From the IMG/VR virus record IMGVR_UViG_3300010352_001202: 64,000 nucleotides of DNA, one strand, 5' to 3'. Below, piece after piece: positions 639 to 59,875 of this stretch. The DNA is from a virus. Its lineage: Duplodnaviria; Caudoviricetes. The notes under the pieces were generated by a model that did no database searches, was not told where the DNA came from, and worked only from the letters and a program-made list of their open reading frames with translations. Both the position numbers and the translations under genes were made by a program. The stretch's first letter is position 1; each line of letters begins with the position of its first letter.

Positions 639-734
639 TTTATCTCCTTTGGAATAATATTCCATTATTGTTTTTACATGATATTTATCTCCTTGTCGGT
701 AAATATACAAATAAACGCGCTCAATAGGTATAAA

Positions 735-1556
735 ATGGATTATAAGAAACACTATGAAAGATTGATCGACAAGGCAAAGAATAGATTGCCCCCGAAGGTG
801 AAAGAAGATCATCATATTATTCCGAAGTGTATGAATGGAACAGATGCGCCCGGTAATATCATATCCCTTTCCCCAGAAGAACATTTTGTCGCCCACCAAC
901 TGCTTGTAAAGATATACCCGGGAAATAAGAAACTTATTTCGGCATTATCGATGATGTGCTGTAAGAGTCCGAAAAATAAAAGAAATAATAAATGGTATGG
1001 GAGGATTAGAAAGCAGTTTGCAGAAGCACATTCCGGAGTAGGAAATAACAACGCCAAACTTTCGTCCGAGCAAGTCATTGAGGTATATCATTCTACCGAA
1101 TCATATAAGTTATTATCCGAGAAATACAGTGTAGGAACCTATCAAATAATATCCATAAAAAGAAAACTAACGTATAAGAATGTGACAAGGGATATTTTAG
1201 ATCTGCCGGGATTCTATACAGAAGGTAAAACAACACGTCTCCCTTTGCCTATTGAATTTATTGAAAAGATATTTTACGATTCGGGAGATTATGCTTATTT
1301 CTGGGAAAAATATAAAGCGACAGAAAGAGTCGTCCAAAGCATAAAGAATAAAAAATCATTTAGGAAGATAACATCGGGGTTCGGAACACCTGGTCAGGTA
1401 AGACGTTACGGAATGACGCGCGATGAGGTTGAAGCAGTTTATAATGCGACCGGAACCAACCGTGATGTAGCATTGCGTTTTGGTATACATTACAATACGG
1501 TAAGAAATATCAAAGGTAAGAATTCTCGTGCCTTTGATATCTGGGAGGAATTTTGA
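735..1556 (+). CDS. HNH homing endonuclease with C-terminal HTH repeats
   Basis: EDHHIIPKCMNGTD..GNIISLSPEEHFVAHQLL HNH motif, NAKL motif and repeated helix-turn-helix-like segments; start taken at MDYKKHY. Confidence 0.8.
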   Translation: MDYKKHYERLIDKAKNRLPPKVKEDHHIIPKCMNGTDAPGNIISLSPEEHFVAHQLLVKIYPGNKKLISALSMMCCKSPKNKRNNKWYGRIRKQFAEAHSGVGNNNAKLSSEQVIEVYHSTESYKLLSEKYSVGTYQIISIKRKLTYKNVTRDILDLPGFYTEGKTTRLPLPIEFIEKIFYDSGDYAYFWEKYKATERVVQSIKNKKSFRKITSGFGTPGQVRRYGMTRDEVEAVYNATGTNRDVALRFGIHYNTVRNIKGKNSRAFDIWEEF

Positions 1557-27748: not shown

Positions 27749-27949
27749 ATGCCGAGAAATATTCACGAAGATTTACAGAACCATCACGACACCAAATCAC
27801 ATACATTTAACACAACATTTGGTATGAATCCACCATATACAAAAGAGCAGAGTGCAATTATTGATTTAGAAACAAAGGTTGCCGAATTAGAAGCACAATG
27901 TCGTATCATGGTGTCGCATATCGGGGCATTAGAGACAAAATCTAAGTAA
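27749..27949 (+). CDS. Small hypothetical protein
   Basis: AGGAGG SD. Confidence 0.6.
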
Positions 27950-28587
27950 TGTTCTATACCTATGCTTATATAAGATCAAAAGATTCTGCTACAGCAAAGG
28001 CAGGAACTCCGTATTATATAGGCAAAGGCAAAGGCAATCGTGCATACGAATGGCGTAAAAATGTGCCTAAACCCAAAAACAACAATTTTATTATCTTATT
28101 AGAAACTAATCTAACAGAGACAGGTGCATTAGCACTCGAGCGTAGATTGATAAAGTGGTGGGGAAGAAAAGATTTAGGTACGGGTATTCTTCTTAACAGA
28201 ACAGACGGCGGTGAGGGGCTAACTGGCAGACAACCATCGGCCGTTGGTAAGAAACATACAATCGAGACTCGGCAGAAGATGTCACGGATTAGAAAAGAAA
28301 ATCCGTTAACAGAAAAGCAGTTAGATGTTCTTAGAAAAATGGCTGAACATAATAAGGATGGTAAATCGTGGAACAGTGGTGTTTCTACAGGTCCGCGAAC
28401 TTTCGATCAGAATGAGAATAACAGGCAGGCTCAGCTAGCTAGATGGTCTGTAGCTAAAGAACAAAGAGACGAAGAGTATTTTAAAAATCCGACCTATTGT
28501 TGTCACTGTAAACTGGTTCTATCTTTCAGAAAAAGACATAAGCAATATTGCGACAAAACATGTTCCAGCAAGGCTAGACGAAAATGA
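27949..28587 (+). CDS. GIY-YIG-type homing endonuclease with NUMOD3-like motif
   Basis: FYTYAY...PYYIGKG..R, E..LI..WGR, L.N.TDGGEG, GKKHT.ETR.KMS. Confidence 0.8.
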
Positions 28588-30038
28588 AAACAAAATTAGA
28601 AATTGTCGATGAAGTGAATGTTCGCTTCCATGATTTAGATGTTGTATGCCGTCGCAAAATGGTAGAGGCACTAGAATATTTTATTCCATCGGCACAATAC
28701 ACTCCGGCCTACCGGCTGGGACGATGGTCGGGAAAAATGTCGTATGCAGACATCGGCGGTCGTTCATATCTAAATCTATTAGATAAACTCTTACCCATTG
28801 TGCAACAGCACGGTTATGAAATTGAGATCGATGACCAGCGCGAGCAGCATTCTTTTGAATTTGAAAAAGTCGATGAAGATAGCTACAGCCACATTAGCTG
28901 GCCCAAAGGGCATCCACTTGCTGGACAACCTATCAAGATCAAGGAACATCAACTTGATGTAATTAACTCTTACCTTGAGAACATCACAGGCATTAACATT
29001 GCCCCGACAGGCTCGGGAAAGACCCTAATTACGGCGATTCTTAGCCATAAGGCCGAACCTTATGGCCGCACGATAGTTATTGTGCCTACAAAGGATTTAG
29101 TCACACAAACAGAAGAAGATTACATTAACCTTGGATTAGATGTAGGTGTCTATTACGGCGATAGAAAAGAATATCGCAAGACCCACACAATTTGTACATG
29201 GCAAAGCTTAGAAAGCCTAGCAAAGAAATCAAAAGAAACCGAGCTAGAGATTTATATCGAAGATTTCTTCGAGGGCGTGGTGTGCGTCATAGTGGACGAG
29301 GTACACAAGGCGAAAGCCGATGTATTGAGAAAACTGTTATCGACTTATTTGGCTAAAGCACCTATTCGCTGGGGTCTTACTGGTACAATGCCGGAAGAAG
29401 ACTTTGAAAAGGTAGGCGTTATCGCTTGTATCGGCCCTATGCTGGGTAGAATCAATACAAAAGATCTTCAAGATAGCGGAATCCTTGCACAGTTGCATGT
29501 GAATGTGTGGCAACTACAAGACTTAGGTGAAGCAGCATTTGATAACTATCAATCCGAACTGAAATGGTTAACTACTAATCCGGCACGGCTAAAATATCTT
29601 GCCAAGCAAGTGGAAGAAATGGCCGAGACCGGCAACACACTTATATTGGTAGATCGCATTGAGACTGGAGAAAAGTTACAATCACTTATACCGGGCTCGA
29701 TTTTCGTTTCCGGTAAGATGAAGTCAAAGGACAGAAAAGCCGAGTATAAAGAAGTTCAGGAAGTAGACGGGAAGATTATTATTGCTACATATGGTGTAGC
29801 ATCTACAGGCATTAACATCGTCCGTATTTTTAATCTTGTTCTATTTGAAGCAGGTAAGAGCTTTGTGAGAGTAATTCAAAGTATAGGTCGTGGCATTCGT
29901 GTTGCACCAGATAAGGACTTTGTAAACATCTATGATGTTTGCTCGAACTGTAAGTTCTCAAAGAGGCACCTAACAAAGCGCAAGAAGTTCTATACAGAGG
30001 CACAATATCCATTTAGTATTAAGAAGGTGCAGTATTGA
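28584..30038 (+). CDS. uvsW: UvsW-like SF2 helicase
   Basis: [31 protein letters not shown]. Confidence 0.92.
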
Positions 30039-30376
30039 AAACTATTGAAACAGAAATATCTTGGGGATATTTGCCATTAATAGAAATATTTGCAAAAGCA
30101 AATAGTTTAGTTTTGAAATTTGAGCCAAGGTATACAACTGAACCAACTCGTGAATTTATAACAATTCATTATGAGGAAAATTCCGATACTGATATAACGA
30201 TTACCTGGTTGTCGTTTAAGCATCTCGGATTTAACAATATGTTGTGTGATTATTTAATAAGATGTAATGTGGAACCTATGATGATTCCAATAGGAAAAGT
30301 CGTAATGAGAAAAGATCCAGAGCTGGCAGAAAAAGAATGGCAAGAACATAGAAGGAAAATTGGGCTCACAAGATGA
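30035..30376 (+). CDS. Hypothetical protein
   Basis: Overlaps both neighbouring genes. Confidence 0.55.
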   Translation: MKTIETEISWGYLPLIEIFAKANSLVLKFEPRYTTEPTREFITIHYEENSDTDITITWLSFKHLGFNNMLCDYLIRCNVEPMMIPIGKVVMRKDPELAEKEWQEHRRKIGLTR

Positions 30377-30876
30377 ATATTTTAACAAATGAAAACAGGG
30401 CTTACAACTTAGATAAGATCCCGAACGAAATAGAAGACATTAGGTATTGCGTATTAGATTATTCGGATCCTAAGAATCCTGATTACTTTTTTATACCATT
30501 AATCTTCCTGGAAAGCTTTTATGCACCAGCTGTTGTTCTAAAGATAGGCGAATATACTGTACAAATGCCGCTTGATTGGTCTATACTTGTATGCGATGAG
30601 GACTATAGTGATTTAGAGCTAATGCCACTCACAAGTTTAAATGATCGTGGATTTCACACCATGGTTTTTAATCCACTAAGGCATATGGTACCAAGACCAC
30701 AAGAAGTAAACATTACAAATGTCTACGCAGAAGTGAAATGGTATTTCCCTAAGTTAAAGAACGGAAACATTTTAGTTGTTCCTGTAGAAGATAAACCTCA
30801 TCCTAACTGTGTATTATTTGTAAAGGAAGTTAGTAAACTTCCCGATGTGATTGATATGGGAGCACTCTTTGAGTAA
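30373..30876 (+). CDS. Hypothetical beta-rich protein
   Basis: 167-aa ORF with ATGA coupling. Confidence 0.75.
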   Translation: MNILTNENRAYNLDKIPNEIEDIRYCVLDYSDPKNPDYFFIPLIFLESFYAPAVVLKIGEYTVQMPLDWSILVCDEDYSDLELMPLTSLNDRGFHTMVFNPLRHMVPRPQEVNITNVYAEVKWYFPKLKNGNILVVPVEDKPHPNCVLFVKEVSKLPDVIDMGALFE

Positions 30877-31423
30877 CGAAGTAGGTGATTGGATTGAAGG
30901 TTTTTATCAAATGAACCCAGATGCGGTTCGAGTTGATGATGAGCCTAAGAAGAAAAAGAAAGAAAGTACACTGACATTGCAAGTTGAGTTACCTGCAATG
31001 GATTTGCGTAACATGGACTTCTATGCGAAGTTATCTGATGAGCACAAGAAAGAAATCAGCTTATGGGTGCTAATGAGATTCATGAGTTCATCGCAAGGTG
31101 CAACAGAACACCATATAATGATGGTTAATGATGTTGTAAATCATAACTTCAGCAATATTTCCAAGCATCCGGAATTGCAATGGAAGTTATTGGCATTGTG
31201 CGGCACAGGTAAGAAACAATTCCATCCATGGATCGCCCCACCTAGGGGCATCAAAAAGAATAAGTTAGAAGAAGCAGTTCTAAAGCATTACCCGTTACTT
31301 AAAGATAGCGATTTGGAATTATTACTCAAACTAAATACCCAAGCAGATTGGGAAGCATTCTTTAAAGACAACGGATACGACGACAAAACAATTAAGGAAC
31401 TGTTCAACACTAAGGGTAAATAA
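30869..31423 (+). CDS. Hypothetical protein, possibly clamp-loader small subunit (gp62)-like
   Basis: TTG start with GGAG SD; W.LMRFMS..VN...KHP.LQW.LL; the functional guess is weak. Confidence 0.5.
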   Translation: MSNEVGDWIEGFYQMNPDAVRVDDEPKKKKKESTLTLQVELPAMDLRNMDFYAKLSDEHKKEISLWVLMRFMSSSQGATEHHIMMVNDVVNHNFSNISKHPELQWKLLALCGTGKKQFHPWIAPPRGIKKNKLEEAVLKHYPLLKDSDLELLLKLNTQADWEAFFKDNGYDDKTIKELFNTKGK

Positions 31424-31425
31424 CT

Positions 31426-32124
31426 GTGTTGGCAAAAAAGAAAATGGATCAAGACTTCAGCTGTAAGTTTTGCGGAAATAAATTTCATAAGGAAACTACA
31501 CTAGCCACCCATATGTGCGTTAAGAAAAGACGCCATATGGAGCTCGGTGCTTCTGGATCGAGATTTGGTTTCCGTACATTCCAACGATTCTACGAGTTGA
31601 CAACTCAATCAAAGAAACTAAAATCCACAGACGATTTTATCAATAGTCCCTACTATATCGACTTTGTAAAGTTTGGTAATCATCTAGCATTACTAAAGCC
31701 AGTTCATATTGACAAGTATATCGATTTTGTTATTATGAATGGAGTAAAGTTAAAAGATTGGACAAAGGATTTTGTGTATGACCTCTATATTGAGGATCTA
31801 CTCAAAAAAGAACCCGCTGTAAGTGCAACCGAGAGAACCATTACAGAGATAATGGAATGGTGTGATAGGAATACCGTTGAGTTTGATAAATTCTTTTCGA
31901 CAGTAAATGCAAATGAAGCAGCACACCTGATTAGAACAGGCAGAATTAGTCCATGGGTCTTATATCTTAGTTCAACCGGCGAACAGTTAATGTCCCGTTT
32001 TAACGAAGATCATGCCAATATGATTGGCGCTGTAATTGATCCCGGTTTTTGGATGAGAAAGTTTAAGAAGGCAGACGATGATGTTGACTTCATTAAGAAT
32101 ATTTTGGAGCAATCAAAGTTATGA
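31426..32124 (+). CDS. C2H2/C2HC zinc-finger-containing protein
   Basis: FSCKFCGNKFHKETTLATHMC; G.ISPW. Confidence 0.75.
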   Translation: MLAKKKMDQDFSCKFCGNKFHKETTLATHMCVKKRRHMELGASGSRFGFRTFQRFYELTTQSKKLKSTDDFINSPYYIDFVKFGNHLALLKPVHIDKYIDFVIMNGVKLKDWTKDFVYDLYIEDLLKKEPAVSATERTITEIMEWCDRNTVEFDKFFSTVNANEAAHLIRTGRISPWVLYLSSTGEQLMSRFNEDHANMIGAVIDPGFWMRKFKKADDDVDFIKNILEQSKL

Positions 32125-32324
32125 CAAAGACACACAGAAGAAAAGGTAAGGAAGTAGGATCAAAAGATCCAAAGGGTAAATGTGACATGTGTAACCATAG
32201 AAAAGCTACACATTGGTTTGGTATGACAAGCGTTGCATTATGCGACGAGGAAGAGTGCGCAGAACGAAATCAGGTTAACTGGGATCGCATGATAGAAGAC
32301 ATGGAAGATGAAAATGGTTATTGA
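32121..32324 (+). CDS. Small Cys-rich protein
   Basis: CDMC...CDEEEC. Confidence 0.55.
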   Translation: MTKTHRRKGKEVGSKDPKGKCDMCNHRKATHWFGMTSVALCDEEECAERNQVNWDRMIEDMEDENGY

Positions 32325-32520
32325 TATTCTTGATTGGGATATAACTTATACTGAACTTATGCAATGGATTTCCATTACGGGTGCCGAGTTAGTTGCCATT
32401 ACCGGCCTTGGTGGCTTTGGAGCATTTACCGGCTCCGTTGGTCCATGTACAAAGTACGAATTTTATAAAGAGGAAGACTTTGTAATGTTCAAACTTGCTT
32501 TTCAAAAAGAAAAGAAATAA
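32308..32520 (+). CDS. Small hypothetical protein, possibly extended by a -1 frameshift to 32615
   Basis: Ends YEFYKEEDFVMFKLAF; the -1 frame continues VGY...YYAPYIP. Confidence 0.6.
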   Translation: MKMVIDILDWDITYTELMQWISITGAELVAITGLGGFGAFTGSVGPCTKYEFYKEEDFVMFKLAFQKEKK

Positions 32521-32595
32521 CATATAAAGTAGGATATCGAGATAAACAGATATTTGATGTATCTGCTTACTACGCACCCTATATTCCGTATCCAA

Positions 32596-33183
32596 ATGAA
32601 AAAAGTAACAACTGATGTAGATATCGATGTGTTTGGTCGGGATAAAATCCTAGAAGGATTAGAATGTATCTTTGGCCGCATCGATCGTGCTGATAACAAG
32701 TACGATAAGCATAACACTGGTGTATACTTTCAGAATATTCCGCGTGATCCTGTAACTAATATTTCTACAGTCGATCACCGTATTGCCAAAGATTATGGTT
32801 ATTTTAAGATTGACTTTCTTAATGTCAATATGTATGAAAATATTAGGGATGAAGAACATCTCCTAAAACTATTGAATACGGAACCACCCTGGGACTTCTT
32901 CGAATATAAAGAAGTAACAGAACAACTGTTCCACCTTAGTGGTCATAGCAACTTGCTCAGCAAGTACAGACCACAGTCCGTAGAAGACTTAGCTATGATT
33001 TTGGCTATTATCCGACCAGCCAAGGCACACCTGCAGCAGCAAGGCTGGGATAAGATTAGGGATGAGGTGTGGGTTAAAACAGGCGACGAAAACTACCAGT
33101 TTAAGAGATCACATGCAATTAGCTATGCGCTAGCTATTATTGTGAATCTAAATTTACTGATAGAAGAACTATCTAAGGATTAG
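32596..33183 (+). CDS. Minimal DNA polymerase III alpha (DnaE)-like protein
   Basis: DVDID, KHNTGVY, GYFKIDFLN, LAIIRP and YQFKRSHAISYA motifs within 195 aa. Confidence 0.82.
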   Translation: MKKVTTDVDIDVFGRDKILEGLECIFGRIDRADNKYDKHNTGVYFQNIPRDPVTNISTVDHRIAKDYGYFKIDFLNVNMYENIRDEEHLLKLLNTEPPWDFFEYKEVTEQLFHLSGHSNLLSKYRPQSVEDLAMILAIIRPAKAHLQQQGWDKIRDEVWVKTGDENYQFKRSHAISYALAIIVNLNLLIEELSKD

Positions 33184-33551
33184 TCTGTTCGTCTCACTAA
33201 GTGAATCTGACGCTTCTTAATGCGCTTCCTCATAATATTATTAAGGCTTGTTACCGAGCCGAATAATATCTCTACATCTTTATTTACAATTGTTTTCATG
33301 CAGTAACGGAATGGTTGCATCTGTCCCTGCAAGAAAATATTGATAGGTAAAAGTCTATTACTCTCCCACCACCAAGTTTCTCCGTACTCTAAAAAGAGCA
33401 CCTTCTCTTCGGGTGAGCGTATAGATTCGTAGTCATAGAAACTAATAATTTTATCATCAGAATTCTGTATAATGCCGATATACTCGTGAGTTTGGCAGCG
33501 AATTCCGCTTAGAAAGGGAAATTTTTCTTTGATTTCTTCTAGATTAATCAT
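33180..33551 (-). CDS. Hypothetical late protein
   Basis: [27 protein letters not shown]; CATAAATA on the minus strand at 33559-66. Confidence 0.75.
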
Positions 33552-33622
33552 ACCTTGTTATTTATGAACTTTGGGCGGTGTCGAAACTTTTTTTGGCGCT
33601 GATAGTGATAAATATGAATAAT

Positions 33623-34225
33623 ATGTTCTATGTCTATGCCTATCTTCGTAAGTCCGACAATACACCCTACTATATAGGAAAGGGCAAGGAGTCTCGCGCA
33701 TACGAAAAGCATAATGTTTCTGTTCCAAATAGTAGAAATAATATAGTGTTTTTAGAGACTGGTCTTACCGAAATTGGTGCTTTTGCACTTGAACGCAGAA
33801 TGATTAAATGGTACGGACGAAAAGATTTAGGAACCGGTATTCTCCGCAATAGGACAGATGGTGGTGAAGGTAGTGCTGGTAGAATAGTTTCCATTGAATC
33901 GAAAAGGAAACAAGTGCAGACTCGGCGTGAAAACGGAAATTATGTTGTATCAGAGGAAACAAGACAAAAAATTTCCGTAAAAACATCAATATCTACAACA
34001 GGTGTAAAGAAATCTGTAGAACATTCAAAAAATATAGGTTTGGCGAAAATAGGTAATAAAAATCCTATGTTTGGTAAAACTCCTACAGCGGAACACAAAA
34101 TGAAAATTAGTCTTACAATGAGTGGTATTTCTAAGCCACAGATTTCTTGTCCACATTGTAATAAAACAGGTGGTAAACCGGTAATGGCTCGTCACCACTT
34201 TGATAACTGTAAACACAAGGAGTAA
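33623..34225 (+). CDS. GIY-YIG-type homing endonuclease with NUMOD3 motifs
   Basis: FYVYAY...[35 protein letters not shown]...H.DNC; GATAAATA at 33607. Confidence 0.8.
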
Positions 34226-34230
34226 CTAAT

Positions 34231-35103
34231 GTGGATGTTACCTTTAAAAAAATATATTTGTACGATCATGTCTGGCAGCTACTTGCTGTTGGCGACACCT
34301 TTTGTCCTTGCAAGGATACAGGCCCAATGAATAATAATACTCCTTTGAAATGCCATAAGGGTATTGATAACAAACTCATCTTTAGAGCATTGGGCCCGGA
34401 CAGAGTTCCGCTTGATATTTCATGCACTCAGCAAGTGTATGCAAGAATCGTTGATCCGGATAATAGAATGGTTGTTCTTGAGAAACTATGCAGAATAGGA
34501 CCAGCTAAAGGGATTATTACCTGTGAATTAGATTCGGGCGATATTGCTTTACTTCACGCCGGTCTTTATAACTTTGTATTGATTAGAACAGAAGACTTTG
34601 TTTCTAATGTGCCCGGTTATTATGTTGAGAAGCCCTTATATAGTGACATGAATGATAATGTCGCTATGGAAATTGAAATTACAGAACAAGCATTCAAGGC
34701 ACCTAAACCTAGCATTATTATTAATCCGGAAGATTGGATTCCCGATATTATCCTTTCTACCATGACTGCACCTGCACCTTGTTTCTATACTTCCAGAATT
34801 CCTGGCGGCCGTGTTCAAAATCATATTGACTCGGTTCACTCGTTCTCTACATACACTGAAAACTTCACAGGTATTCTCGAAATTTGGGGATCGTTAGAAG
34901 AAACTCCGGATCCGTATCTAAATTCAGCACGATGGTTTAAAATTTATCCATCGTCTATGTCTAATGACATTGAATTTATTCAATATACAGGCACACAGGC
35001 ATGGACCTTCTCTGCAAACTTTATGTGGTTGAAGTTTAGATATTTCCCAAGCACAGAAGTTTTAGATCCCGGTATTATGAGAAAACTTATTGTAAGAACA
35101 TGA
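34231..35103 (+). CDS. Hypothetical virion-type protein
   Basis: GTG start with AAGGAG SD; KGIDN.L.F, F.WL.F.Y. Confidence 0.7.
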   Translation: MDVTFKKIYLYDHVWQLLAVGDTFCPCKDTGPMNNNTPLKCHKGIDNKLIFRALGPDRVPLDISCTQQVYARIVDPDNRMVVLEKLCRIGPAKGIITCELDSGDIALLHAGLYNFVLIRTEDFVSNVPGYYVEKPLYSDMNDNVAMEIEITEQAFKAPKPSIIINPEDWIPDIILSTMTAPAPCFYTSRIPGGRVQNHIDSVHSFSTYTENFTGILEIWGSLEETPDPYLNSARWFKIYPSSMSNDIEFIQYTGTQAWTFSANFMWLKFRYFPSTEVLDPGIMRKLIVRT

Positions 35104-35456
35104 AGGCAGAAGAATTTTTAATAGAATCATCTATTGATGATAATTTTGATTTTGTAATAAAACCTAAGCGGGGAATGTACGCATTTCCGAAGGGTGTGGA
35201 CCAATCTGATAAGAATAATGCAGCAGGATGGCTTGGATTATCTTTCGTTAGCCCCGGTGTATACGAAGTGGCTGATGTTTTAGTTCATCCCGAATATAAA
35301 AGGCAAGGTCTCGCAACAGCAATGTATCAGAAAATGATTGATACGGGTATTAGGCTTGTTCGCTCTAATGAGCAACGGCCCGACGGAAGCGCAATGTGGG
35401 CAGGATTTGCAAAGAAAGGTCTTGCCAGGAATAGAGAATTTGTCGGTAAAAACTAA
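35100..35456 (+). CDS. GNAT acetyltransferase with capsid-targeting-like N-terminus
   Basis: V.VHPEYKRQGLATAMY acetyl-CoA motif; Q.PDG.AMW; starts MKAEEFLIES. Confidence 0.75.
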   Translation: MKAEEFLIESSIDDNFDFVIKPKRGMYAFPKGVDQSDKNNAAGWLGLSFVSPGVYEVADVLVHPEYKRQGLATAMYQKMIDTGIRLVRSNEQRPDGSAMWAGFAKKGLARNREFVGKN

Positions 35457-35493: not shown

Positions 35494-36552
35494 ATGATCC
35501 TAGATGTCTTAAAAGACGCAATCCTTTCCAACCTTGGTACTCTTAAGCAAGCCCCTAAGGGCTGGCATAAGCGTAACTGTATGCTTTGCCACACACAAGG
35601 GCACGGCAGAGATACCCGCAACCGTTTTGGAATCCAGTTTAACCCAAACTCAATCGCACTAAATTGTTTCAATTGCGGATTCTCCGCTGGTTACACAGAA
35701 GGCGAGGAGCTATCTAAACACTTCAAGTTTTTCCTAACCCAATTACACATAGATGACAAATTCATTAAGCAAATCGAATTTGAAATCTTTAAGTCTAAAA
35801 ATAAGATTGATGCATTGCGTGAAGGCGAAAAGGTTGAGGATAAGGAAGGTAAACTCAAAAACTTGTTCCAGAAGTGGAAACCAATGGAGTTGCCCAAGGA
35901 TTCGTTACCTGTATCTCAATGGCTAGAATACGGTTTAGATAATCCCAACTTTCTAAAAGTTGTAAACTATGCACTTGATAGAAAAATATTTGATTTAGAC
36001 AACTTCTACTGGTCACCGCTACGAGAACATAATCTAAATCAAAGATTGATTATACCTTATTACTACAAAAGAAAAATTGTAGGATTTACTTCGCGACTTT
36101 GTTTCAATCCGCCCGACAAGTCTATCCCAAAATACTATCAACAATGCCCCGAAGACTTTGTCTACAATCTTGACAATCAACAAGAGTGGTCTCGTAAATA
36201 TGCACTTGTTACAGAGGGAGTTCTAGATGCCTGGGTTTTAGATGGCATAAGTATATTAGGAGAAGTAGGCCAGGCGAAGATTGATATTATCAACCGATTG
36301 CAGAAAGAAGTTATCGTATGCCCAGACGGTGACAAGAAAGGTTGGGATTTAGTTCAAATTGCAATAGATAACAACTGGGCGGTCTCGTTCCCCAAATGGA
36401 GCATGGAATTCAAAGACCCTGCAAGAGCAGCAGAAAAATACGGAAGGTTACTAACAACTCACTCTGTTATTTCTTCAGCAGTTCACGGCAAGGATAAAAT
36501 ACAATTAAAATGGAACATTGAACAAAATGACAGAGAACGAAAACGCAAGTGA
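35494..36552 (+). CDS. DNA primase (gp61-like)
   Basis: CxxC...CFNC zinc finger; RLIIP; TOPRIM motifs VTEG.LDA and PDGD..G; KD. Confidence 0.88.
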   Translation: MILDVLKDAILSNLGTLKQAPKGWHKRNCMLCHTQGHGRDTRNRFGIQFNPNSIALNCFNCGFSAGYTEGEELSKHFKFFLTQLHIDDKFIKQIEFEIFKSKNKIDALREGEKVEDKEGKLKNLFQKWKPMELPKDSLPVSQWLEYGLDNPNFLKVVNYALDRKIFDLDNFYWSPLREHNLNQRLIIPYYYKRKIVGFTSRLCFNPPDKSIPKYYQQCPEDFVYNLDNQQEWSRKYALVTEGVLDAWVLDGISILGEVGQAKIDIINRLQKEVIVCPDGDKKGWDLVQIAIDNNWAVSFPKWSMEFKDPARAAEKYGRLLTTHSVISSAVHGKDKIQLKWNIEQNDRERKRK

Positions 36553-37972
36553 AATTAATGACTATAGCAAGGACATAGAAGACTTGTTCATTAGTTTCAT
36601 GATGAGCAAGCCGGATCTGTTTGTACGATGCAAGGGTATTCTAAAGTCGCAATATTTTGATGATAAGCAAAACAGAGATACAGTTGCTTTCATTGAAGGG
36701 TATAGTGTTGACTTTTCAGAAATCCCGTCATTGCAACAAATCAGAGCAGTTACCAGAAAAGAAATAGACCTAATGGAGGTCGAGGCTGCAAAGCACGACA
36801 ATTGGTTCTTAAGAGAATTTGAAAAGTTTTGTAGGCATAAGGCACTTAGGGATGCAATTCTTGCATCGCCGGATTTGCTTGATGAGGGCAGATATGGCGA
36901 AGTTGAATCAACTATTAAGGCGGCGGTGCAAATCGCCCTGGTTAAGGACCTTGGAACAGATTATTACGCAAATCCCAAAGCACGACTTGAAGCGATTCGT
37001 GAGGGTAAGGGTCAGGTATCGACGGGCTGGAAAACAGTAGATGAAAAGCTATATGGTGGTCTAAACAAAGGTGAAATTACAATCTTTGCCGGACAATCTG
37101 GTGCTGGTAAATCTCTTTTCTTACAGAACCTTGCAGTCAACTGGGCGCAGGCAGGATTAAATGTAATTTATCTTTCACTAGAACTTAGCGAACCATTGTG
37201 TTCTATGCGTGTGGATGCAATGCACACTGGATTTGAAACTCGCGAAGTAATGCGTAACATCGATGATGTTCACATTAAGGTAAGAGCATCACAACAAAAG
37301 ACTAAAGGTAATCTGCAAGTAAAGCAATTGCCAAACGGCTGTACTTCTAATGATATTCGTGCTTATGTCAAAGAATACGAGATCTTTAAGAAGGTAAAGG
37401 TAGATGCAATTCTTGTAGACTATTTGGATCTAATGATGCCAATGTCTAAGAAGATTTCAGCAGAAAACTTATTCGTTAAGGACAAGTATGTTACTGAAGA
37501 GTTGCGTAACCTTGCAGTAGAGTTACAGGTAGTAACAGTTTCGGCTTCTCAGTTGAATCGTGGTTCTTATGAAGAAATTGAGTTTGACCCAAGCCATATT
37601 GCTGGTGGTATTTCTAAAGTTAACACAGCAGATAATGTCATCGGTATCTTTACAAGTGCTGCAATGAAAGAAGGCGGTAGATATCAAATTCAATTTATGA
37701 AGACGCGTTCTAGTTCGGGCGTAGGATCTAAGGTAGACTTATCCTTTGATAACAAATGTCTTAGAATTACTGACCTGGAAGAAGGCGACGATAATGCTAT
37801 ACAAGCAACTTCTAAGAACATCTATGAGCAATTAAAGAAGAAGAGTGTAGTAAGAGGCGGAGAAAAGGCAGAACCGAGCTCCGGAGACGCAACATCAATG
37901 ACACAGAATAGTGGAAAAGCTAATCCATTGGAAGGTGCGGCCGTGTTAAGAGCTTTTATTAAGAATAGATAG
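36527..37972 (+). CDS. Replicative helicase (gp41/DnaB-like)
   Basis: AGQSGAGKS, SLELSE, VDYLDL, SASQLNR, K.R. Confidence 0.92.
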   Translation: MTENENASEINDYSKDIEDLFISFMMSKPDLFVRCKGILKSQYFDDKQNRDTVAFIEGYSVDFSEIPSLQQIRAVTRKEIDLMEVEAAKHDNWFLREFEKFCRHKALRDAILASPDLLDEGRYGEVESTIKAAVQIALVKDLGTDYYANPKARLEAIREGKGQVSTGWKTVDEKLYGGLNKGEITIFAGQSGAGKSLFLQNLAVNWAQAGLNVIYLSLELSEPLCSMRVDAMHTGFETREVMRNIDDVHIKVRASQQKTKGNLQVKQLPNGCTSNDIRAYVKEYEIFKKVKVDAILVDYLDLMMPMSKKISAENLFVKDKYVTEELRNLAVELQVVTVSASQLNRGSYEEIEFDPSHIAGGISKVNTADNVIGIFTSAAMKEGGRYQIQFMKTRSSSGVGSKVDLSFDNKCLRITDLEEGDDNAIQATSKNIYEQLKKKSVVRGGEKAEPSSGDATSMTQNSGKANPLEGAAVLRAFIKNR

Positions 37973-50823: not shown

Positions 50824-50875
50824 CAATAAATCAATCCGGGCATTAGTCCCGGTGTATACAAACATTGGAGATAAA

Positions 50876-52765
50876 ATGCTATACGAAACCTACATTGCAA
50901 AATCAAGATATGCACGCTACATAGACTCAAAGAAGCGCCGTGAAAACTGGGATGAGACTGTTGCTCGTTATTTTGATTTTATGGAGAATCATTTAAAGCA
51001 GAAACATAATTATATCTTAACTCCCGAGTTAAGAAACGAATTACAGAGTGCAGTCACAAACAATGAAGTTATGCCTTCTATGCGTGCTCTTATGACAGCA
51101 GGCAAGGCACTCGAAAGAGATAACACTGCTGGTTACAACTGTTCATATCTCCCAGTTGATGACCCAAAGGCTTTCGATGAAGCAATGTTTATTCTGCTAT
51201 GTGGCACTGGTGTGGGTTTCAGTGTAGAGCGTCAATACATTAGTAAGCTTCCTGAAGTTCCGGATCGTATCTATGACAGCGAATCTATTATTGTTGTTTC
51301 AGACAGTAAAGAAGGTTGGGCAAAGGCACTTCGCCAGGTTATTGCAATGTTGTATTCTGGCGAAGCTCCTCGTTGGGATGTTAGTAAGGTTCGCCCAGCA
51401 GGCGCCCGTTTAAAGGTTTTTGGCGGCCGTGCATCGGGTCCAGAACCTTTGATTGACTTATTCAAGTTTGTTATTAAGACATTTAAGAATGCACAGGGAA
51501 GAAAGCTTAACAGTATTGAATGTCACGACATTATGTGTAAGGTTGGTGAAGTGGTTGTTGTGGGTGGCGTGCGCAGATCTGCTATGATCTCCCTGTCAAA
51601 CCTTTCTGACGATCGTATGCGTAATGCTAAGAGTGGTGCATGGTGGGAAACACAAGGTCAGCGTGCCCTTGCGAATAACAGTGCATGCCACACCGAGCGC
51701 CCCGATGTGGGAATTTTCATGCAAGAATGGCTTTCTCTCTACGAATCCAAGTCCGGCGAACGCGGAATCTTTAATCGTGAAGCTGCAAAGAATATTGTAA
51801 AGAAGAGCGGTCGTCGTAATCCGGATTTTGACTTTGGTACAAATCCTTGTGCGGAAATTATCCTACGACCTTACCAGTTCTGTAATCTAACAGAAATTAT
51901 TGTCCGTGCATCTGACACACTTGAAGATCTATTGCGTAAGGCAAGAATTGCTACTATCCTCGGCACATTCCAGTCGACGCTAACACACTTCCCTTATCTA
52001 CGCAAAATTTGGCGAGATAACACCGAAGCGGAGCGTTTGCTAGGTGTGTCCATGACAGGTATCTTGGATAATCACTTCCTAAATAATCCTAACGATCCAG
52101 AATTGCCTGCTCGTTTAGAAGCACTCAAGGCAGCTACTGTTGCAGTCAATGCTGAATTTGCTGCTATTCTTGATATTCCGGTTGCCGCCGCTATTACTGC
52201 TGTAAAACCGTCTGGAACAGTTTCTCAATTAACAGATACAGCAAGTGGAATTCACCCACGCCATGCTGCCTATTACTATCGTCGTATTCGCGGTGATGTG
52301 AAAGATCCGCTAACAAGAGCAATGATGGTTGCTGGTGTCCCTAGCGAACCTGATGTTATGAAGCCTGGAAGCACAATGGTATTTACTTTCCCTAAGAAAG
52401 CTCCAGAGGGTGCAGTTCTTAGACAAGATCTTGATGCCATTAAGCACTTGAATTTATGGCTTGTTTATCAAAGACACTACTGTGAGCATAAGCCATCTGT
52501 AACTATTTCAGTATCGGAAAAAGAATGGCCAGCAGTAGGTGCATTTGTATGGGAATACTTTGATGAAATGTCGGGTGTATCATTCCTACCGTACGACGGC
52601 GGCACATATAAGCAAGCTCCTTACGAGGATTGCACTAAAGAAGAGTATGAGGCTCTATTAGCACAGATGCCTAAGTCTATTGATTGGGATGCAATTGTTG
52701 AGCTCGAGGATAATGTCGAAGGCGCACAAATGTTGGCCTGTACAGCAGGGCAATGCGAAATTTAA
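50876..52765 (+). CDS. nrdJ: Class II (B12-dependent) ribonucleotide reductase
   Basis: YNCSY, GTGVGFSVE, GGVRRSA, GTNPCAEI, CNL, KPSGTVSQL, C-terminal CTAGQC; no beta subunit adjacent. Confidence 0.9.
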   Translation: MLYETYIAKSRYARYIDSKKRRENWDETVARYFDFMENHLKQKHNYILTPELRNELQSAVTNNEVMPSMRALMTAGKALERDNTAGYNCSYLPVDDPKAFDEAMFILLCGTGVGFSVERQYISKLPEVPDRIYDSESIIVVSDSKEGWAKALRQVIAMLYSGEAPRWDVSKVRPAGARLKVFGGRASGPEPLIDLFKFVIKTFKNAQGRKLNSIECHDIMCKVGEVVVVGGVRRSAMISLSNLSDDRMRNAKSGAWWETQGQRALANNSACHTERPDVGIFMQEWLSLYESKSGERGIFNREAAKNIVKKSGRRNPDFDFGTNPCAEIILRPYQFCNLTEIIVRASDTLEDLLRKARIATILGTFQSTLTHFPYLRKIWRDNTEAERLLGVSMTGILDNHFLNNPNDPELPARLEALKAATVAVNAEFAAILDIPVAAAITAVKPSGTVSQLTDTASGIHPRHAAYYYRRIRGDVKDPLTRAMMVAGVPSEPDVMKPGSTMVFTFPKKAPEGAVLRQDLDAIKHLNLWLVYQRHYCEHKPSVTISVSEKEWPAVGAFVWEYFDEMSGVSFLPYDGGTYKQAPYEDCTKEEYEALLAQMPKSIDWDAIVELEDNVEGAQMLACTAGQCEI

Positions 52766-58492: not shown

Positions 58493-59875
58493 ATGAAATT
58501 TGCAAAAAACATTATTCTCAATAGCGATAGTTACAAGTACAGTCAATGGGTGCAATACCCTGCCGGAACGGAGTATGTTTACTCATACATCGAATCCAGA
58601 GGCGGAAAATACGACAAGCTGGTATTCCTAGGCCTGCAAGCCTTCCTGCGCGAATATCTGACCACACCGGTCACTCGCGCAATGGTTGATCAGGCTGAGG
58701 CAATCATGAAAGTTCACGGCGAGCCCTTTAACCGCGAAGGTTGGGATTACATCGTGAAAGAACATGGTGGTATACTGCCTGTTGAAATCAAGTCGGTGGA
58801 TGAAGGCTCGGTAATGTATTTAAAGAATGTGCTGGTGTCGATTGTGAATACCGACCCCAAGTGCTTCTGGCTTACAAGCTTCTTGGAAACTGCATTGCTT
58901 CGTGCAATCTGGTATCCTACTACGGTTGCCAGCAACAGCTACAAGAGTAAAGAAATCATCCTTGAATTCTTGAACCGCAATGGCGATCCTTCGCTTATTG
59001 ACTTCAAGTTGCACGACTTTGGCGCTCGTGGAGTATCGAGCCTGGAAAGTGCTGCATTGGGTGGTATGGCGCACTTGGTAAACTTCCTGGGCACAGACAC
59101 CGTGTCTGGTATCCTAGCAGCTATGGAATATTACGACGCAGAAGTTTGCGGCTTTAGTATTCCTGCCATGGAACACAGCACAGTTACAAGCTGGGGCCGT
59201 GAACATGAGGTGGATGCGTATCGCAATATGCTGAAGATTTACGGCAAACCCGGCATGCCGGTCGCGTTTGTTAGCGACAGCTACGACATCTACGAAGCCT
59301 GCAAGAAGTGGGGAACAGAGCTGAAGCAAGAAGTTATTGACAGCGGTGCGGTAGTTGTTGTCCGTCCGGACAGTGGCGATCCAGTGCAAGTTGTAAATGA
59401 CTGCTTGAAGATCCTTGACAAATATTACGGACATACCGTTAACGAGAAGGGCTTCCGAGTCCTGAACAATGTTCGCATTATCCAGGGTGATGGTATTGAT
59501 CATGTTATGATTCGTGCTATCCTGACAGTAATGGAACTAAATGGTTACAGTGCCGACAATGTTGCATTTGGACAAGGCGGTGCATTGCTCCAGCAAGTTA
59601 ACCGCGATACTCTTGAGTTTGCGATGAAGTGCTCGGCAGCAGTGATTGCTGGACAGTGGGTTGATGTATACAAGGATCCTATTACTTCTTCTGCCAAGAA
59701 GAGTAAGAAAGGTCGCTTGATGCTTGTGCGTGATGCCGATGGTAAGTTTGTTACCAAGAGGCTTGAGTACAACACAGAGGTAGACCTTCTGAAGACTCGC
59801 TGGATCAACGGTAAGTTCTGCAACCAGACTACATTCGACCAGGTTCGTGCCAGAGCTAAGGAGGGCGTTCACTAA
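58493..59875 (+). CDS. nadV: Nicotinamide phosphoribosyltransferase
   Basis: DSYKYS, YIESRGG, LHDFGARG, SIPA.EHS, VSDSYD, VRPDSGDP, IQGDG, G.GG.LLQ. Confidence 0.93.
   Translation: MKFAKNIILNSDSYKYSQWVQYPAGTEYVYSYIESRGGKYDKLVFLGLQAFLREYLTTPVTRAMVDQAEAIMKVHGEPFNREGWDYIVKEHGGILPVEIKSVDEGSVMYLKNVLVSIVNTDPKCFWLTSFLETALLRAIWYPTTVASNSYKSKEIILEFLNRNGDPSLIDFKLHDFGARGVSSLESAALGGMAHLVNFLGTDTVSGILAAMEYYDAEVCGFSIPAMEHSTVTSWGREHEVDAYRNMLKIYGKPGMPVAFVSDSYDIYEACKKWGTELKQEVIDSGAVVVVRPDSGDPVQVVNDCLKILDKYYGHTVNEKGFRVLNNVRIIQGDGIDHVMIRAILTVMELNGYSADNVAFGQGGALLQQVNRDTLEFAMKCSAAVIAGQWVDVYKDPITSSAKKSKKGRLMLVRDADGKFVTKRLEYNTEVDLLKTRWINGKFCNQTTFDQVRARAKEGVH

What the first reader, a model, noticed from the sequence alone, without database searches (positions are those of the whole stretch)
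32596..33183. Miniature C-family (DnaE-like) polymerase with all catalytic motifs in ~195 aa
Seen: in order, DVDID, KHNTGVY, GYFKIDFLN, LAIIRP and YQFKRSHAISYA, ending in a clean stop that overlaps a convergent gene. Established: in DnaE these correspond to PDIDxD (two catalytic Asp), HAxGV, GLxKxDFLG (third Asp), ALYRPG and YGFNKSHAxxY, in a protein of over 1000 aa. Here the PHP, thumb, clamp-binding, HhH and OB regions are missing and the spacers between motifs are collapsed, which looks like deliberate miniaturisation rather than a terminal fragment. It ends the uvsW operon and lies just upstream of primase-helicase. Inference: a stand-alone palm+fingers nucleotidyltransferase (primer extender, terminal transferase or signal synthase), or the catalytic subunit of a split polymerase whose other parts may be neighbouring unknowns (30373, 30869, 31426 zinc finger, 33180).
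Basis: partly seen in the sequence, partly recalled or inferred. Interest (0 to 1): 0.82.

Follow-up and report, generated by a model that had tools for sequence, protein, structure and literature searches.

The report
Half of a split mini-DnaE polymerase
This 195-residue phage gene is real and conserved, but it is only the metal-binding half of a two-gene "minimal DNA polymerase III alpha" that was described by computation in 2021 for T4-like giant phages; its other half is not in this window (it lies about 60 kb away in close relatives).

Summary
ORF 32596-33183 (+) carries the DnaE palm and finger motifs in order, and they are far beyond chance: phrog_11778 E 1e-64, and a pLDDT 95.8 model that matches only C-family polymerases (Z 6.3-9.8, E. 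coli alpha 397-784).

The reading is only partly right. The ORF does not hold all catalytic motifs. The nucleotide-binding G-R-G-S loop sits on a separate ~178-aa protein, the N-unit. The N-unit ends where E. coli alpha reaches N393, and this ORF starts at about E395.

The N-unit is not a neighbour. It is absent from the window and lies about 60 kb away in a complete 369-kb relative, which also has a T4-type family B polymerase.

The two halves co-occur in about 94-96 isolate phages. A natural fused 375-aa form exists. A complex model scores 0.86 against 0.01 for the best control. The gene is under strong purifying selection (median omega 0.08).

This is the C-terminal unit of the split minimal Pol III alpha of group 2.2 jumbo phages (Iyer et al. 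2021, PMC7824862), here in a new activated-sludge phage. This scan reached the same reading on another genome. Activity has never been assayed.

The parts
32596..33183 (+). C-terminal (metal- and template-binding) unit of the split minimal Pol III alpha, 195 aa (P0001)
   Evidence: phrog_11778 E 1e-64. AF2 pLDDT 95.8. VIA-align Z 9.8-6.3 to PolC/DnaE only, spanning E. coli alpha 397-784. Omega about 0.08.
32614..32628 (+). DVDID, residues 7-11: first two metal-binding Asp (D7, D9), equivalent to E. coli D401/D403, plus D11 (D405)
   Evidence: D7 and D9 invariant and D11 at least 90% conserved in 80 diverse homologues. Motif mapping. VIA range starts at E. coli 397-401.
32707..32727 (+). KHNTGVY, residues 38-44, equivalent to E. 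coli K510-HAGGV; about 85-90 residues of E. coli alpha (by position the thumb) are missing just before it
   Evidence: H39 and G42 at least 90% conserved. Pairwise alignment. 49 residues here span what takes 138 in E. coli.
32806..32814 (+). K71-I-D73: third catalytic Asp and the conserved Lys, equivalent to E. coli K553/D555
   Evidence: K71 and D73 invariant. HMMER and hhalign alignments to E. coli alpha.
33001..33018 (+). LAIIRP, residues 136-141, equivalent to E. coli ALFRPG 636-641; after it about 87 residues of the E. coli fingers (642-742) have no counterpart
   Evidence: P141 invariant and R140 at least 90% conserved. Alignment.
33094..33129 (+). YQFKRSHAISYA, residues 167-178, equivalent to E. 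coli YGFNKSHSAAYA 754-765 (finger motif)
   Evidence: K170, H173 and A178 at least 90% conserved. HMMER second domain aligns to E. coli 743-768.
33180..33551 (-). Convergent 123-aa ORF (phrog_11637, function unknown), tightly linked to the C-unit; candidate accessory, not shown
   Evidence: phrog_11637 E 8.5e-32. An ORF of similar size sits in the same convergent position in Atu_ph07, Ettore and GAP32; tblastn confirms the homology for Ettore and GAP32. It is also next to the natural fused form (tblastn E 9e-6).
28584..32124 (+). Context, same strand upstream: UvsW helicase (28584-30038), then conserved unknowns phrog_11279 (30373-30876), phrog_11758 (30851-31423) and the C2H2 zinc-finger protein phrog_11058 (31426-32124)
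   Evidence: The same gene order is seen.
35494..37972 (+). Context downstream: DnaG-type primase (35494-36552) and DnaB/gp41-type helicase (36518-37972)
   Evidence: searches (DnaB_C; phrog_6444, weak), and synteny.

Best explanation
ORF 32596-33183 encodes the C-terminal unit of the two-gene 'minimal DNA polymerase III alpha' of T4-like (group 2.2) jumbo phages.

What this unit supplies. It carries the three metal-binding carboxylates (D7, D9, D73), the conserved K71, and a stub of the fingers ending in the FKxSHAxxYA helix.

What it lacks. The other half of the Pol-beta-like nucleotidyltransferase fold is missing: the palm helices and the G-R-G-S loop that holds the triphosphate of the incoming nucleotide. 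That half is a separate ~178-aa protein, the N-unit. It is probably P0151 in this phage and is encoded outside the window, next to the clamp-loader genes.

How it most likely works. The two proteins associate non-covalently across the break (E. coli N393 | E395). Together they rebuild one active site of about 290 core residues, with no PHP, thumb, clamp-binding, HhH or OB domains.

What is shown: homology, fold, conservation, the position of the split, co-occurrence of the halves, and the existence of a fused form.

What is inferred:
- The heterodimer forms in vivo (about 0.8).
- It is catalytically active (about 0.75).
- It synthesises DNA on a template as an accessory to the phage's family B replicase, for example short-patch, primer-extension or recombination-linked synthesis (about 0.5). 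This is suggested by its place between uvsW and primase-helicase.
For: Family membership:
- phrog_11778 full-length, E 1e-64.
- 96 isolate jumbo phages (PA5oct, Atu_ph07, RaK2, GAP32, 121Q and others) carry a same-sized homologue, in the same uvsW ... C-unit - convergent ORF ... primase-helicase order.
- The family is described in PMC7824862, sections 3.4.1 and 3.5.

Fold:
- C-unit matches E. coli alpha 397-784, Mtb DnaE1 415-811 and PolC 967-1299, Z up to 9.8.
- N-unit residues 82-178 match E. coli 278-393, Mtb 307-413 and PolC 824-964, Z up to 12.4. The two ranges abut.
- hhalign puts the last N-unit residue on E. coli N393 and its G146-R-G-S149 on G361-S364.
- D7/D9 map to D401/D403.

The two halves belong together:
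- The N-unit passes Pfam PF07733 (34.3 against a cut-off of 23.9 bits).
- All 80 IMG/VR N-units end in ...[FY][LIM][KR] (...FL[KR] in 70 of them), then stop.
- The N-unit is in 94 phage records and the C-unit in 96, with near-identical genus counts. The fused query finds 186 places in 96 records, never joined.
- A natural fused protein, P0335 (375 aa), matches PF07733 positions 12-121 across the junction. It sits beside the same convergent ORF.
- Complex model: ipSAE 0.86 against a best control of 0.01. That mark was reached by 58 of 80 solved complexes and 2 of 110 mismatched pairs. Runs agree in at least 89% of contacts and partner pLDDT is at least 84. The interface joins the DxDxD strand to the GRGSS loop.

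Selection and context:
- Catalytic residues are invariant. Median omega is 0.077, maximum 0.22.
- A complete 369-kb relative has exactly one C-unit, one N-unit 60 kb away and a 1000-aa PolB frame.
- P0001 and P0151 both list a longest contig of 388,165 bp.
Against: - No biochemical or genetic test of any family member was found in the searchable literature. Activity, substrate and role are all inferred.
- The cognate N-unit could not be read on the same DNA as the window.
- The complex model can pass from memory of single-chain DnaE/PolC structures, so it shows likeness more than binding.
- The mini enzyme lacks the thumb. It also lacks E. coli finger segment 642-742, which includes the LRRAMGKKK stretch. 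From memory, that stretch helps hold the incoming dNTP. It has no evident duplex-binding or clamp-binding element either. A processive or even templated polymerase activity is therefore not assured.
- The C-unit folds confidently on its own in silico.
Confidence: 0.8

Rival explanations
1. The split enzyme is active, but it is not a templated DNA polymerase. It could be a template-independent terminal transferase, an NTP-using primer maker or extender, or a nucleotide-signal or DNA-modification nucleotidyltransferase.
For: Thumb, finger segment 642-742, HhH, OB and clamp-binding parts are all absent. So most DNA-holding surfaces of C-family polymerases are gone. Pol-beta-fold nucleotidyltransferases perform many non-polymerase reactions (established knowledge). 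The phage already has a full family B replicase in relatives.
Against: The finger motif FKxSHAxxYA and the RP motif, which in DnaE lie on the template/nascent-base-pair side, are retained and highly conserved. The closest folds are replicative C-family polymerases only. Both genes sit in replication and recombination modules: uvsW/primase/helicase, and clamp loader.
Confidence: 0.2
2. A stand-alone miniature polymerase or nucleotidyltransferase that needs no partner.
For: The three acidic residues and K71 all lie on this ORF. AF2 folds it alone at pLDDT 95.8.
Against: The G-R-G-S loop and preceding palm helices are on another protein, whose end abuts this ORF's start in DnaE numbering. The halves co-occur in 94 and 96 phage records with near-identical genus counts. 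A fused natural form exists. The complex model scores 0.86 against 0.01 for the best control; that mark was reached by 58 of 80 solved complexes and 2 of 110 mismatched pairs, runs agree in at least 89% of contacts and partner pLDDT is at least 84, and the pass may come from memory of single-chain DnaE/PolC structures.
Confidence: 0.05
3. A catalytically dead structural or regulatory protein derived from a polymerase, for example a replisome adaptor.
For: Many parts of the ancestral enzyme have been lost. No assay exists.
Against: D7, D9, K71 and D73 are invariant across 80 sequences that share only 28-60% identity with the window's protein. G-R-G-S is invariant in 57 N-units. Such invariance is not expected of an inactive scaffold.
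Confidence: 0.04
4. A recent remnant or pseudogene of a full-length DnaE.
For: It is a short piece of a normally >1000-aa protein.
Against: 350 clusters at 50% identity match at E <= 0.001, and the best 150 listed are about 190-215 aa or shorter fragments, apart from one 375-aa fused form. A search for longer relatives found only two apparent chimeras. Start and stop positions are conserved. Median omega is 0.077 with saturated synonymous sites. The DnaE-like profile finds no other pieces in a complete relative.
Confidence: 0.01

Closest known systems
Split minimal DNA polymerase III alpha of group 2.2 jumbo phages, C-terminal unit (Iyer, Anantharaman, Krishnan, Burroughs, Aravind 2021, Viruses 13:63, PMC7824862; PHROG phrog_11778; partner N-unit phrog_11127)
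   Same: Same size and same motifs, with a full-length profile match. Same gene neighbourhood as in PA5oct-like phages, GAP32 and Atu_ph07. The partner N-unit is encoded far away. The enzyme accompanies a T4-type replication set.
   Different: Only 51% identical to the nearest isolate protein (PA5oct group). It comes from an uncultured activated-sludge phage. Here a GIY-YIG-type homing endonuclease and a GNAT gene are inserted in the module. The partner could not be read on the window itself.
Bacterial DnaE / Pol III alpha (E. coli 2HNH, T. aquaticus 2HPI/3E0D, M. tuberculosis DnaE1 5LEW) and PolC (3F2B)
   Same: Same Pol-beta-like palm with the DxD ... KxD catalytic set and the HxxGV strand. 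Same RP and FxKSHxxxYA finger motifs. These are the only significant structural matches (Z 6.3-9.8).
   Different: 195 residues stand for E. coli 397-784. The polypeptide is broken after the equivalent of N393. There is no PHP domain and no thumb (about 89 residues missing between D401 and residue 539). Finger segment 642-742 is missing, as is everything beyond about residue 784 (distal fingers, clamp-binding motif, HhH, OB, tau-binding). No Pfam DnaE domain reaches its cut-off on this ORF.
Natural single-chain form P0335 (375 aa, metagenome scaffold, locus L065)
   Same: Its C-half is 36% identical to this ORF and keeps the same motifs. It is followed by the same convergent phrog_11637-like ORF.
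   Different: N-unit and C-unit are fused in one frame through a short linker. It was seen once among the best 150 of 350 representative clusters, on a 2.4-kb scaffold.

Membership tests
Split minimal Pol III alpha of group 2.2 jumbo phages, C-terminal unit (phrog_11778) | Full-length match to the family profile, at the family's length (~190-215 aa) | tested here: met
   phrog_11778 E 1.1e-64, residues 2-191 on profile 3-194 of 197. The best 150 representative relatives are about 190-215 aa or shorter fragments, apart from one 375-aa fused form.
Split minimal Pol III alpha of group 2.2 jumbo phages, C-terminal unit (phrog_11778) | Mg-binding acidic residues of the C-family palm (DxD plus a third D) and template-side finger motifs | tested here: met
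   D7, D9, K71 and D73 invariant; R140, K170 and H173 at least 90% conserved. Aligned to E. coli D401/D403, K553/D555, R639/P640 and 756-765.
Split minimal Pol III alpha of group 2.2 jumbo phages, C-terminal unit (phrog_11778) | A separate N-terminal NTP-binding unit encoded at a distant locus of the same genome | tested here: inconclusive
   Not in the 64-kb window. Present 60 kb away in a complete 369-kb relative whose C-unit is 76% identical, and in G002, Ettore, GAP32 and Atu_ph07. P0151 shares the 388,165-bp longest contig with P0001, but the contig itself could not be read.
Split minimal Pol III alpha of group 2.2 jumbo phages, C-terminal unit (phrog_11778) | Accompanies a T4-type replication set with a family B polymerase | tested here: inconclusive
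   The window holds gp32, UvsX, UvsY, UvsW, primase and a DnaB-type helicase. PolB is not in the window. A 989-1013-aa PolB frame is present in G001, G002 and GAP32, and an 825-aa frame plus a further piece in Ettore.
Split minimal Pol III alpha of group 2.2 jumbo phages, C-terminal unit (phrog_11778) | The two units reconstitute one enzyme | not testable with these tools
   Supported only indirectly: abutting structural ranges, a fused natural form and a complex model at 0.86 against a best control of 0.01 (that mark was reached by 58 of 80 solved complexes and 2 of 110 mismatched pairs; runs agree in at least 89% of contacts; partner pLDDT at least 84), which may pass from memory.
Bacterial replicative C-family polymerase (DnaE / Pol III alpha, PolC) | Pol-beta-like palm with the catalytic triad on one polypeptide, together with the GS nucleotide-binding loop | tested here: not met
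   The triad is present, but the GS loop (E. coli G363/S364) is on another protein.
Bacterial replicative C-family polymerase (DnaE / Pol III alpha, PolC) | N-terminal PHP domain | tested here: not met
   The ORF begins at the equivalent of E. coli about 395. The DnaE-like profile finds no PHP piece anywhere in a complete relative.
Bacterial replicative C-family polymerase (DnaE / Pol III alpha, PolC) | Thumb domain and complete fingers | tested here: not met
   49 residues span E. coli 401-539, and about 15 span 641-743.
Bacterial replicative C-family polymerase (DnaE / Pol III alpha, PolC) | Clamp-binding, HhH, OB and tau-binding C-terminal region | tested here: not met
   The protein ends at the equivalent of E. 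coli about 784.
Bacterial replicative C-family polymerase (DnaE / Pol III alpha, PolC) | Pfam DNA_pol3_alpha (PF07733) or DNA_pol3_finger (PF17657) above the gathering score | tested here: not met
   Only PF17657, at 15.4 bits against a cut-off of 22.
Bacterial replicative C-family polymerase (DnaE / Pol III alpha, PolC) | Template-directed DNA polymerase activity | not testable with these tools
   No assay of any family member was found.

The most novel reading that the evidence does not exclude
The N-unit/C-unit pair, of about 373 residues in all and about 290 core residues, is a working C-family DNA polymerase and by far the smallest known. It would serve as a second, dedicated polymerase in a T4-type replisome, for example taking over from primase or acting in UvsW/UvsX-linked recombination-dependent synthesis. 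Clade-specific linked proteins (the convergent phrog_11637 ORF, the zinc-finger phrog_11058 protein, and the small ORF that always follows the N-unit) might replace the lost thumb and DNA-binding domains. [quoted passage not shown]
Probability: 0.3. Interest if true: 0.75.

Novelty: new member of a known kind. Interest (0 to 1): 0.33.

Why it matters
C-family polymerases are the main bacterial replicases and always exceed 900 residues. A two-piece core of about 290 residues has been kept under strong selection in hundreds of lineages of large T4-like phages that already own a family B replicase. Either these replisomes use a second polymerase of unknown role, or the C-family active site has been put to a new use. 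The family has been known from computation since 2021 and remains untested at the bench. This window adds a divergent environmental member. The work here also adds the exact break point (E. coli N393 | E395), a natural fused form, a confident heterodimer model and measured purifying selection. Together these make the bench test straightforward to design.

Tried and rejected
- Searched the window for the N-unit by tblastn with the Ettore and GAP32 N-units and by the G-x-GRGS motif in six frames: nothing.
- No whole genome is held for the window, so the 388-kb contig could not be scanned. The link to P0151 rests on equal contig length.
- phmmer of the single sequence against the PDB: no hit. Only the 80-sequence profile reached DnaE.
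- megablast of the locus against isolate phages: no match.
- Search for longer (fused or full-length) relatives: only two apparent chimeras, with TolB-like or methyltransferase domains.
They were left out and the job was resent.
- Neighbouring unknowns as the missing DnaE parts: Pfam gives only a sub-threshold C2H2 zinc finger for 31426-32124, and PHROGs gives unknown-function families. The Atlas look-ups gave only own-family viral clusters or nothing.
- No DnaQ-like exonuclease gene was seen just upstream of uvsW here, unlike GAP32.
- Promoter and terminator scan around the gene: no more than in shuffled sequence.
- Sequencing runs: no RNA holder listed. Full holders are two activated-sludge DNA runs that may be the source.
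- The PA5oct omics paper does not mention these genes.
- N-unit residues 1-81 had no structural match in the second-look search, which is not evidence of a new fold.

Full report
**1. The observation**

ORF 32596-33183 (+) translates to a 195-aa protein, P0001. Its stop overlaps by 4 nt the stop of a convergent 123-aa ORF at 33180-33551 (-). A longer TTG-started frame from 32554 exists, but every relative begins MKKVTTDVD, so the ATG at 32596 is the start.

- DVDID, residues 7-11
- KHNTGVY, residues 38-44
- GYFKIDFLN, residues 68-76
- LAIIRP, residues 136-141
- YQFKRSHAISYA, residues 167-178

**2. It is not chance**

- Pfam alone is nearly blind to it: DNA_pol3_finger at 15.4 bits, below the cut-off of 22.
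- PHROGs matches phrog_11778 'DNA polymerase' over its full length at E 1e-64, and the 1190-position DnaE-like phrog_405 at E 2e-7.
- A profile of 80 diverse homologues (28-60% identical to P0001) hits only DnaE chains in the PDB at E 1e-5. It aligns K71-x-D73 to E. coli K553/D555, R140-P141 to 639-640, and the FKxSHA motif to 756-761.
- AlphaFold2 gives pLDDT 95.8.
- Foldseek's 13 best matches are all DnaE, with PolC at rank 15.
- VIA-align gives Z 6.3-9.8 with 184-194 of 195 residues aligned. The match spans E. coli alpha 397-784, Mtb DnaE1 415-811 and PolC 967-1299. The next, unrelated fold has Z 3.9.
- D7, D9, K71, D73 and P141 are invariant. D11, H39, G42, R140, K170 and H173 are at least 90% conserved.

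**3. It is a family of its own, under selection**

- An exhaustive search of 1.84 billion representatives finds 350 clusters at E <= 0.001. The best 150 listed are about 190-215 aa or shorter fragments, with one exception of 375 aa.
- A search for longer relatives finds only two apparent chimeras.
- Against 31 IMG/VR relatives, non-synonymous difference is 0.10-0.16 while synonymous sites are saturated (pS 0.66-0.94). In the 143 pairs with measurable dS, median omega is 0.077 and the maximum is 0.22.
- The remnant reading is therefore excluded.

**4. It is half an enzyme**

The DnaE-like PHROG profile hits a second small ORF, far from the first, in Ettore (a PA5oct-like phage), GAP32 and Atu_ph07. 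That ORF matches profile positions about 360-430, just before the stretch matched by P0001. This is the N-unit.

- It is about 170-180 aa, carries an invariant G-x-G-R-G-S motif, and passes Pfam PF07733 (34.3 bits against a cut-off of 23.9).
- All 80 IMG/VR N-units that I extracted end in ...[FY][LIM][KR] (...FL[KR] in 70 of them), followed directly by a stop.
- Its AF2 model has pLDDT 90.1. Residues 82-178 align to E. coli alpha 278-393, Mtb 307-413 and PolC 824-964, with Z up to 12.4.
- These ranges abut those of the C-unit in every structure.
- hhalign puts the last N-unit residue on E. coli N393, and G146-R-G-S149 on G361-R362-G363-S364.
- D7 and D9 of the C-unit fall on D401 and D403.
- The polypeptide is thus broken between about N393 and E395 of E. 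coli alpha. That is inside the nucleotidyltransferase fold, between the nucleotide-binding loop and the strand carrying the first two metal ligands.

**5. The halves belong together**

- In isolate phages the C-unit is in 96 records and the N-unit in 94, with near-identical genus counts. The fused query finds 186 places in 96 records, never joined.
- The one 375-aa relative, P0335, is a natural in-frame fusion of an N-unit and a C-unit. Pfam PF07733 runs across the junction at 59.6 bits.
- On its 2.4-kb scaffold, P0335 is followed by the same convergent ORF family as the window's gene (tblastn E 9e-6).
- A complex model of P0001 with P0151 scored ipSAE 0.86, 0.86 and 0.85 against a best control of 0.01. 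That mark was reached by 58 of 80 solved complexes and 2 of 110 mismatched pairs. Runs agree in at least 89% of contacts, and partner pLDDT is at least 84.
- The interface joins the DxDxD strand (C-unit 6-13) to the GRGSS loop (N-unit 139-152).
- Because DnaE and PolC are solved as single chains, this pass may come from memory. It shows likeness, not binding.

**6. Where the partner is**

- It is not in the window.
- In a complete 369-kb relative with terminal repeats, whose C-unit is 76% identical, the C-unit is at 187.6 kb, the N-unit at 127.5 kb and a 1000-aa family B polymerase frame near 100 kb. The DnaE-like profile finds no other piece.
- P0151, a 178-aa N-unit, shares with P0001 a longest contig of exactly 388,165 bp. 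It is probably the cognate partner.
- On another contig P0151 lies next to a homing endonuclease, a small conserved ORF and the clamp loader.
They show no detectable DnaE likeness. They may be accessories, but nothing shows it.

**7. What is missing relative to DnaE**

- N-unit 82-178 plus the C-unit cover E. coli 278-784 in about 290 residues.
- Between D401 and residue 539, the C-unit has 49 residues where E. coli has 138. By position this is the thumb (domain borders are from memory of Lamers et al. 2006).
- Between 641 and 743 it has about 15 residues where E. coli has 102. The lost stretch includes ILYQEQ and LRRAMGKKK.
- PHP and everything beyond about residue 784 are absent.
- A processive replicase is therefore unlikely without helpers.

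**8. What is known**

Iyer et al. 2021 (PMC7824862) describe exactly this enzyme in group 2.2 jumbo phages. They call it a phage-specific minimal Pol III alpha, split into an N-terminal NTP-binding protein and a C-terminal Mg- and template-binding protein that are encoded by distant genes, alongside a family B polymerase. They suggest a role in synthesis of one strand or in repair, and see it as a model of the ancestral enzyme.

Weinheimer and Aylward 2022 list PF07733 as the marker of a large jumbo-phage cluster. GenBank and PHROGs already label both units as DNA polymerase. I found no assay of either unit. An earlier report of this scan reached the same reading on another genome.

**9. Context and verdict**

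The window is part of an uncultured T4-like jumbo myovirus from activated sludge. It holds rIIA and rIIB, tail sheath and tube, large terminase, gp32, UvsX, UvsY, UvsW, primase, a DnaB-type helicase, ribonucleotide reductase and NAMPT.

- The stand-alone reading is rejected.
- The split-enzyme reading is supported, but with a distant partner rather than a neighbouring one.
- This is a new member of a known, computationally described and biochemically untested family.

Noticed in passing
L065:1066-2193 (+), protein P0335: A natural single-chain (fused N-unit plus C-unit) minimal Pol III alpha of 375 aa, followed by the same convergent phrog_11637-like ORF. It is the only fused form among the 150 best representative clusters. 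The 2021 description speaks only of split forms.
   Followed up: partly
window 27949-28587 (+) and 33578-34225 (+); also 678-1556 (+): Two clearly paralogous GIY-YIG-type homing endonuclease genes (both with ...YAYxR...[14 protein letters not shown]...[18 protein letters not shown]) flank the uvsW-to-C-unit block. They sit at places where Ettore, GAP32 and Atu_ph07 have none. A third homing endonuclease lies at 678-1556. Another one overlaps the start of the N-unit gene on contig L063.
   Followed up: partly
L048:1124-1468 (-), L047:1130-1477 (-), L005:1738-2079 (+), L004:1781-2155 (+), L006:1081-1491 (-), L063:6588-6929 (+): A small ORF of 113-136 aa directly follows the N-unit gene in every genome examined. 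It has a conserved N-terminal stretch (...YRG..[IV]DM....(about 14 residues)..G..xxNA[RK]GD). PHROGs gives only a weak unknown-function hit. It is a possible further subunit.
   Followed up: partly
P0151 residues 1-81 (N-unit, outside the window): The first ~80 residues of the N-unit are confidently modelled but matched no solved structure in the second-look search. They stand where DnaE has its PHP domain.
   Followed up: partly
window 35100-35456 (+): A GNAT acetyltransferase gene (Pfam Acetyltransf_1 in the contig's precomputed hits) sits between the virion-protein-like gene and the primase. It is not seen at that place in the three reference phages.
   Followed up: no
window 32469-32615: Another first-reader note proposes a -1 frame extension of ORF 32308-32520 running into the start of this gene. 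I did not test it. The 75-nt gap before the ATG at 32596 shows no strong ribosome-binding site by eye.
   Followed up: no
window 58493-59875 (+) and 50852-52765 (+): The phage encodes a nicotinamide phosphoribosyltransferase (phrog_448, E 8.5e-158) and a ribonucleotide reductase large subunit. Both are auxiliary nucleotide and NAD metabolism genes typical of large phages.
   Followed up: no
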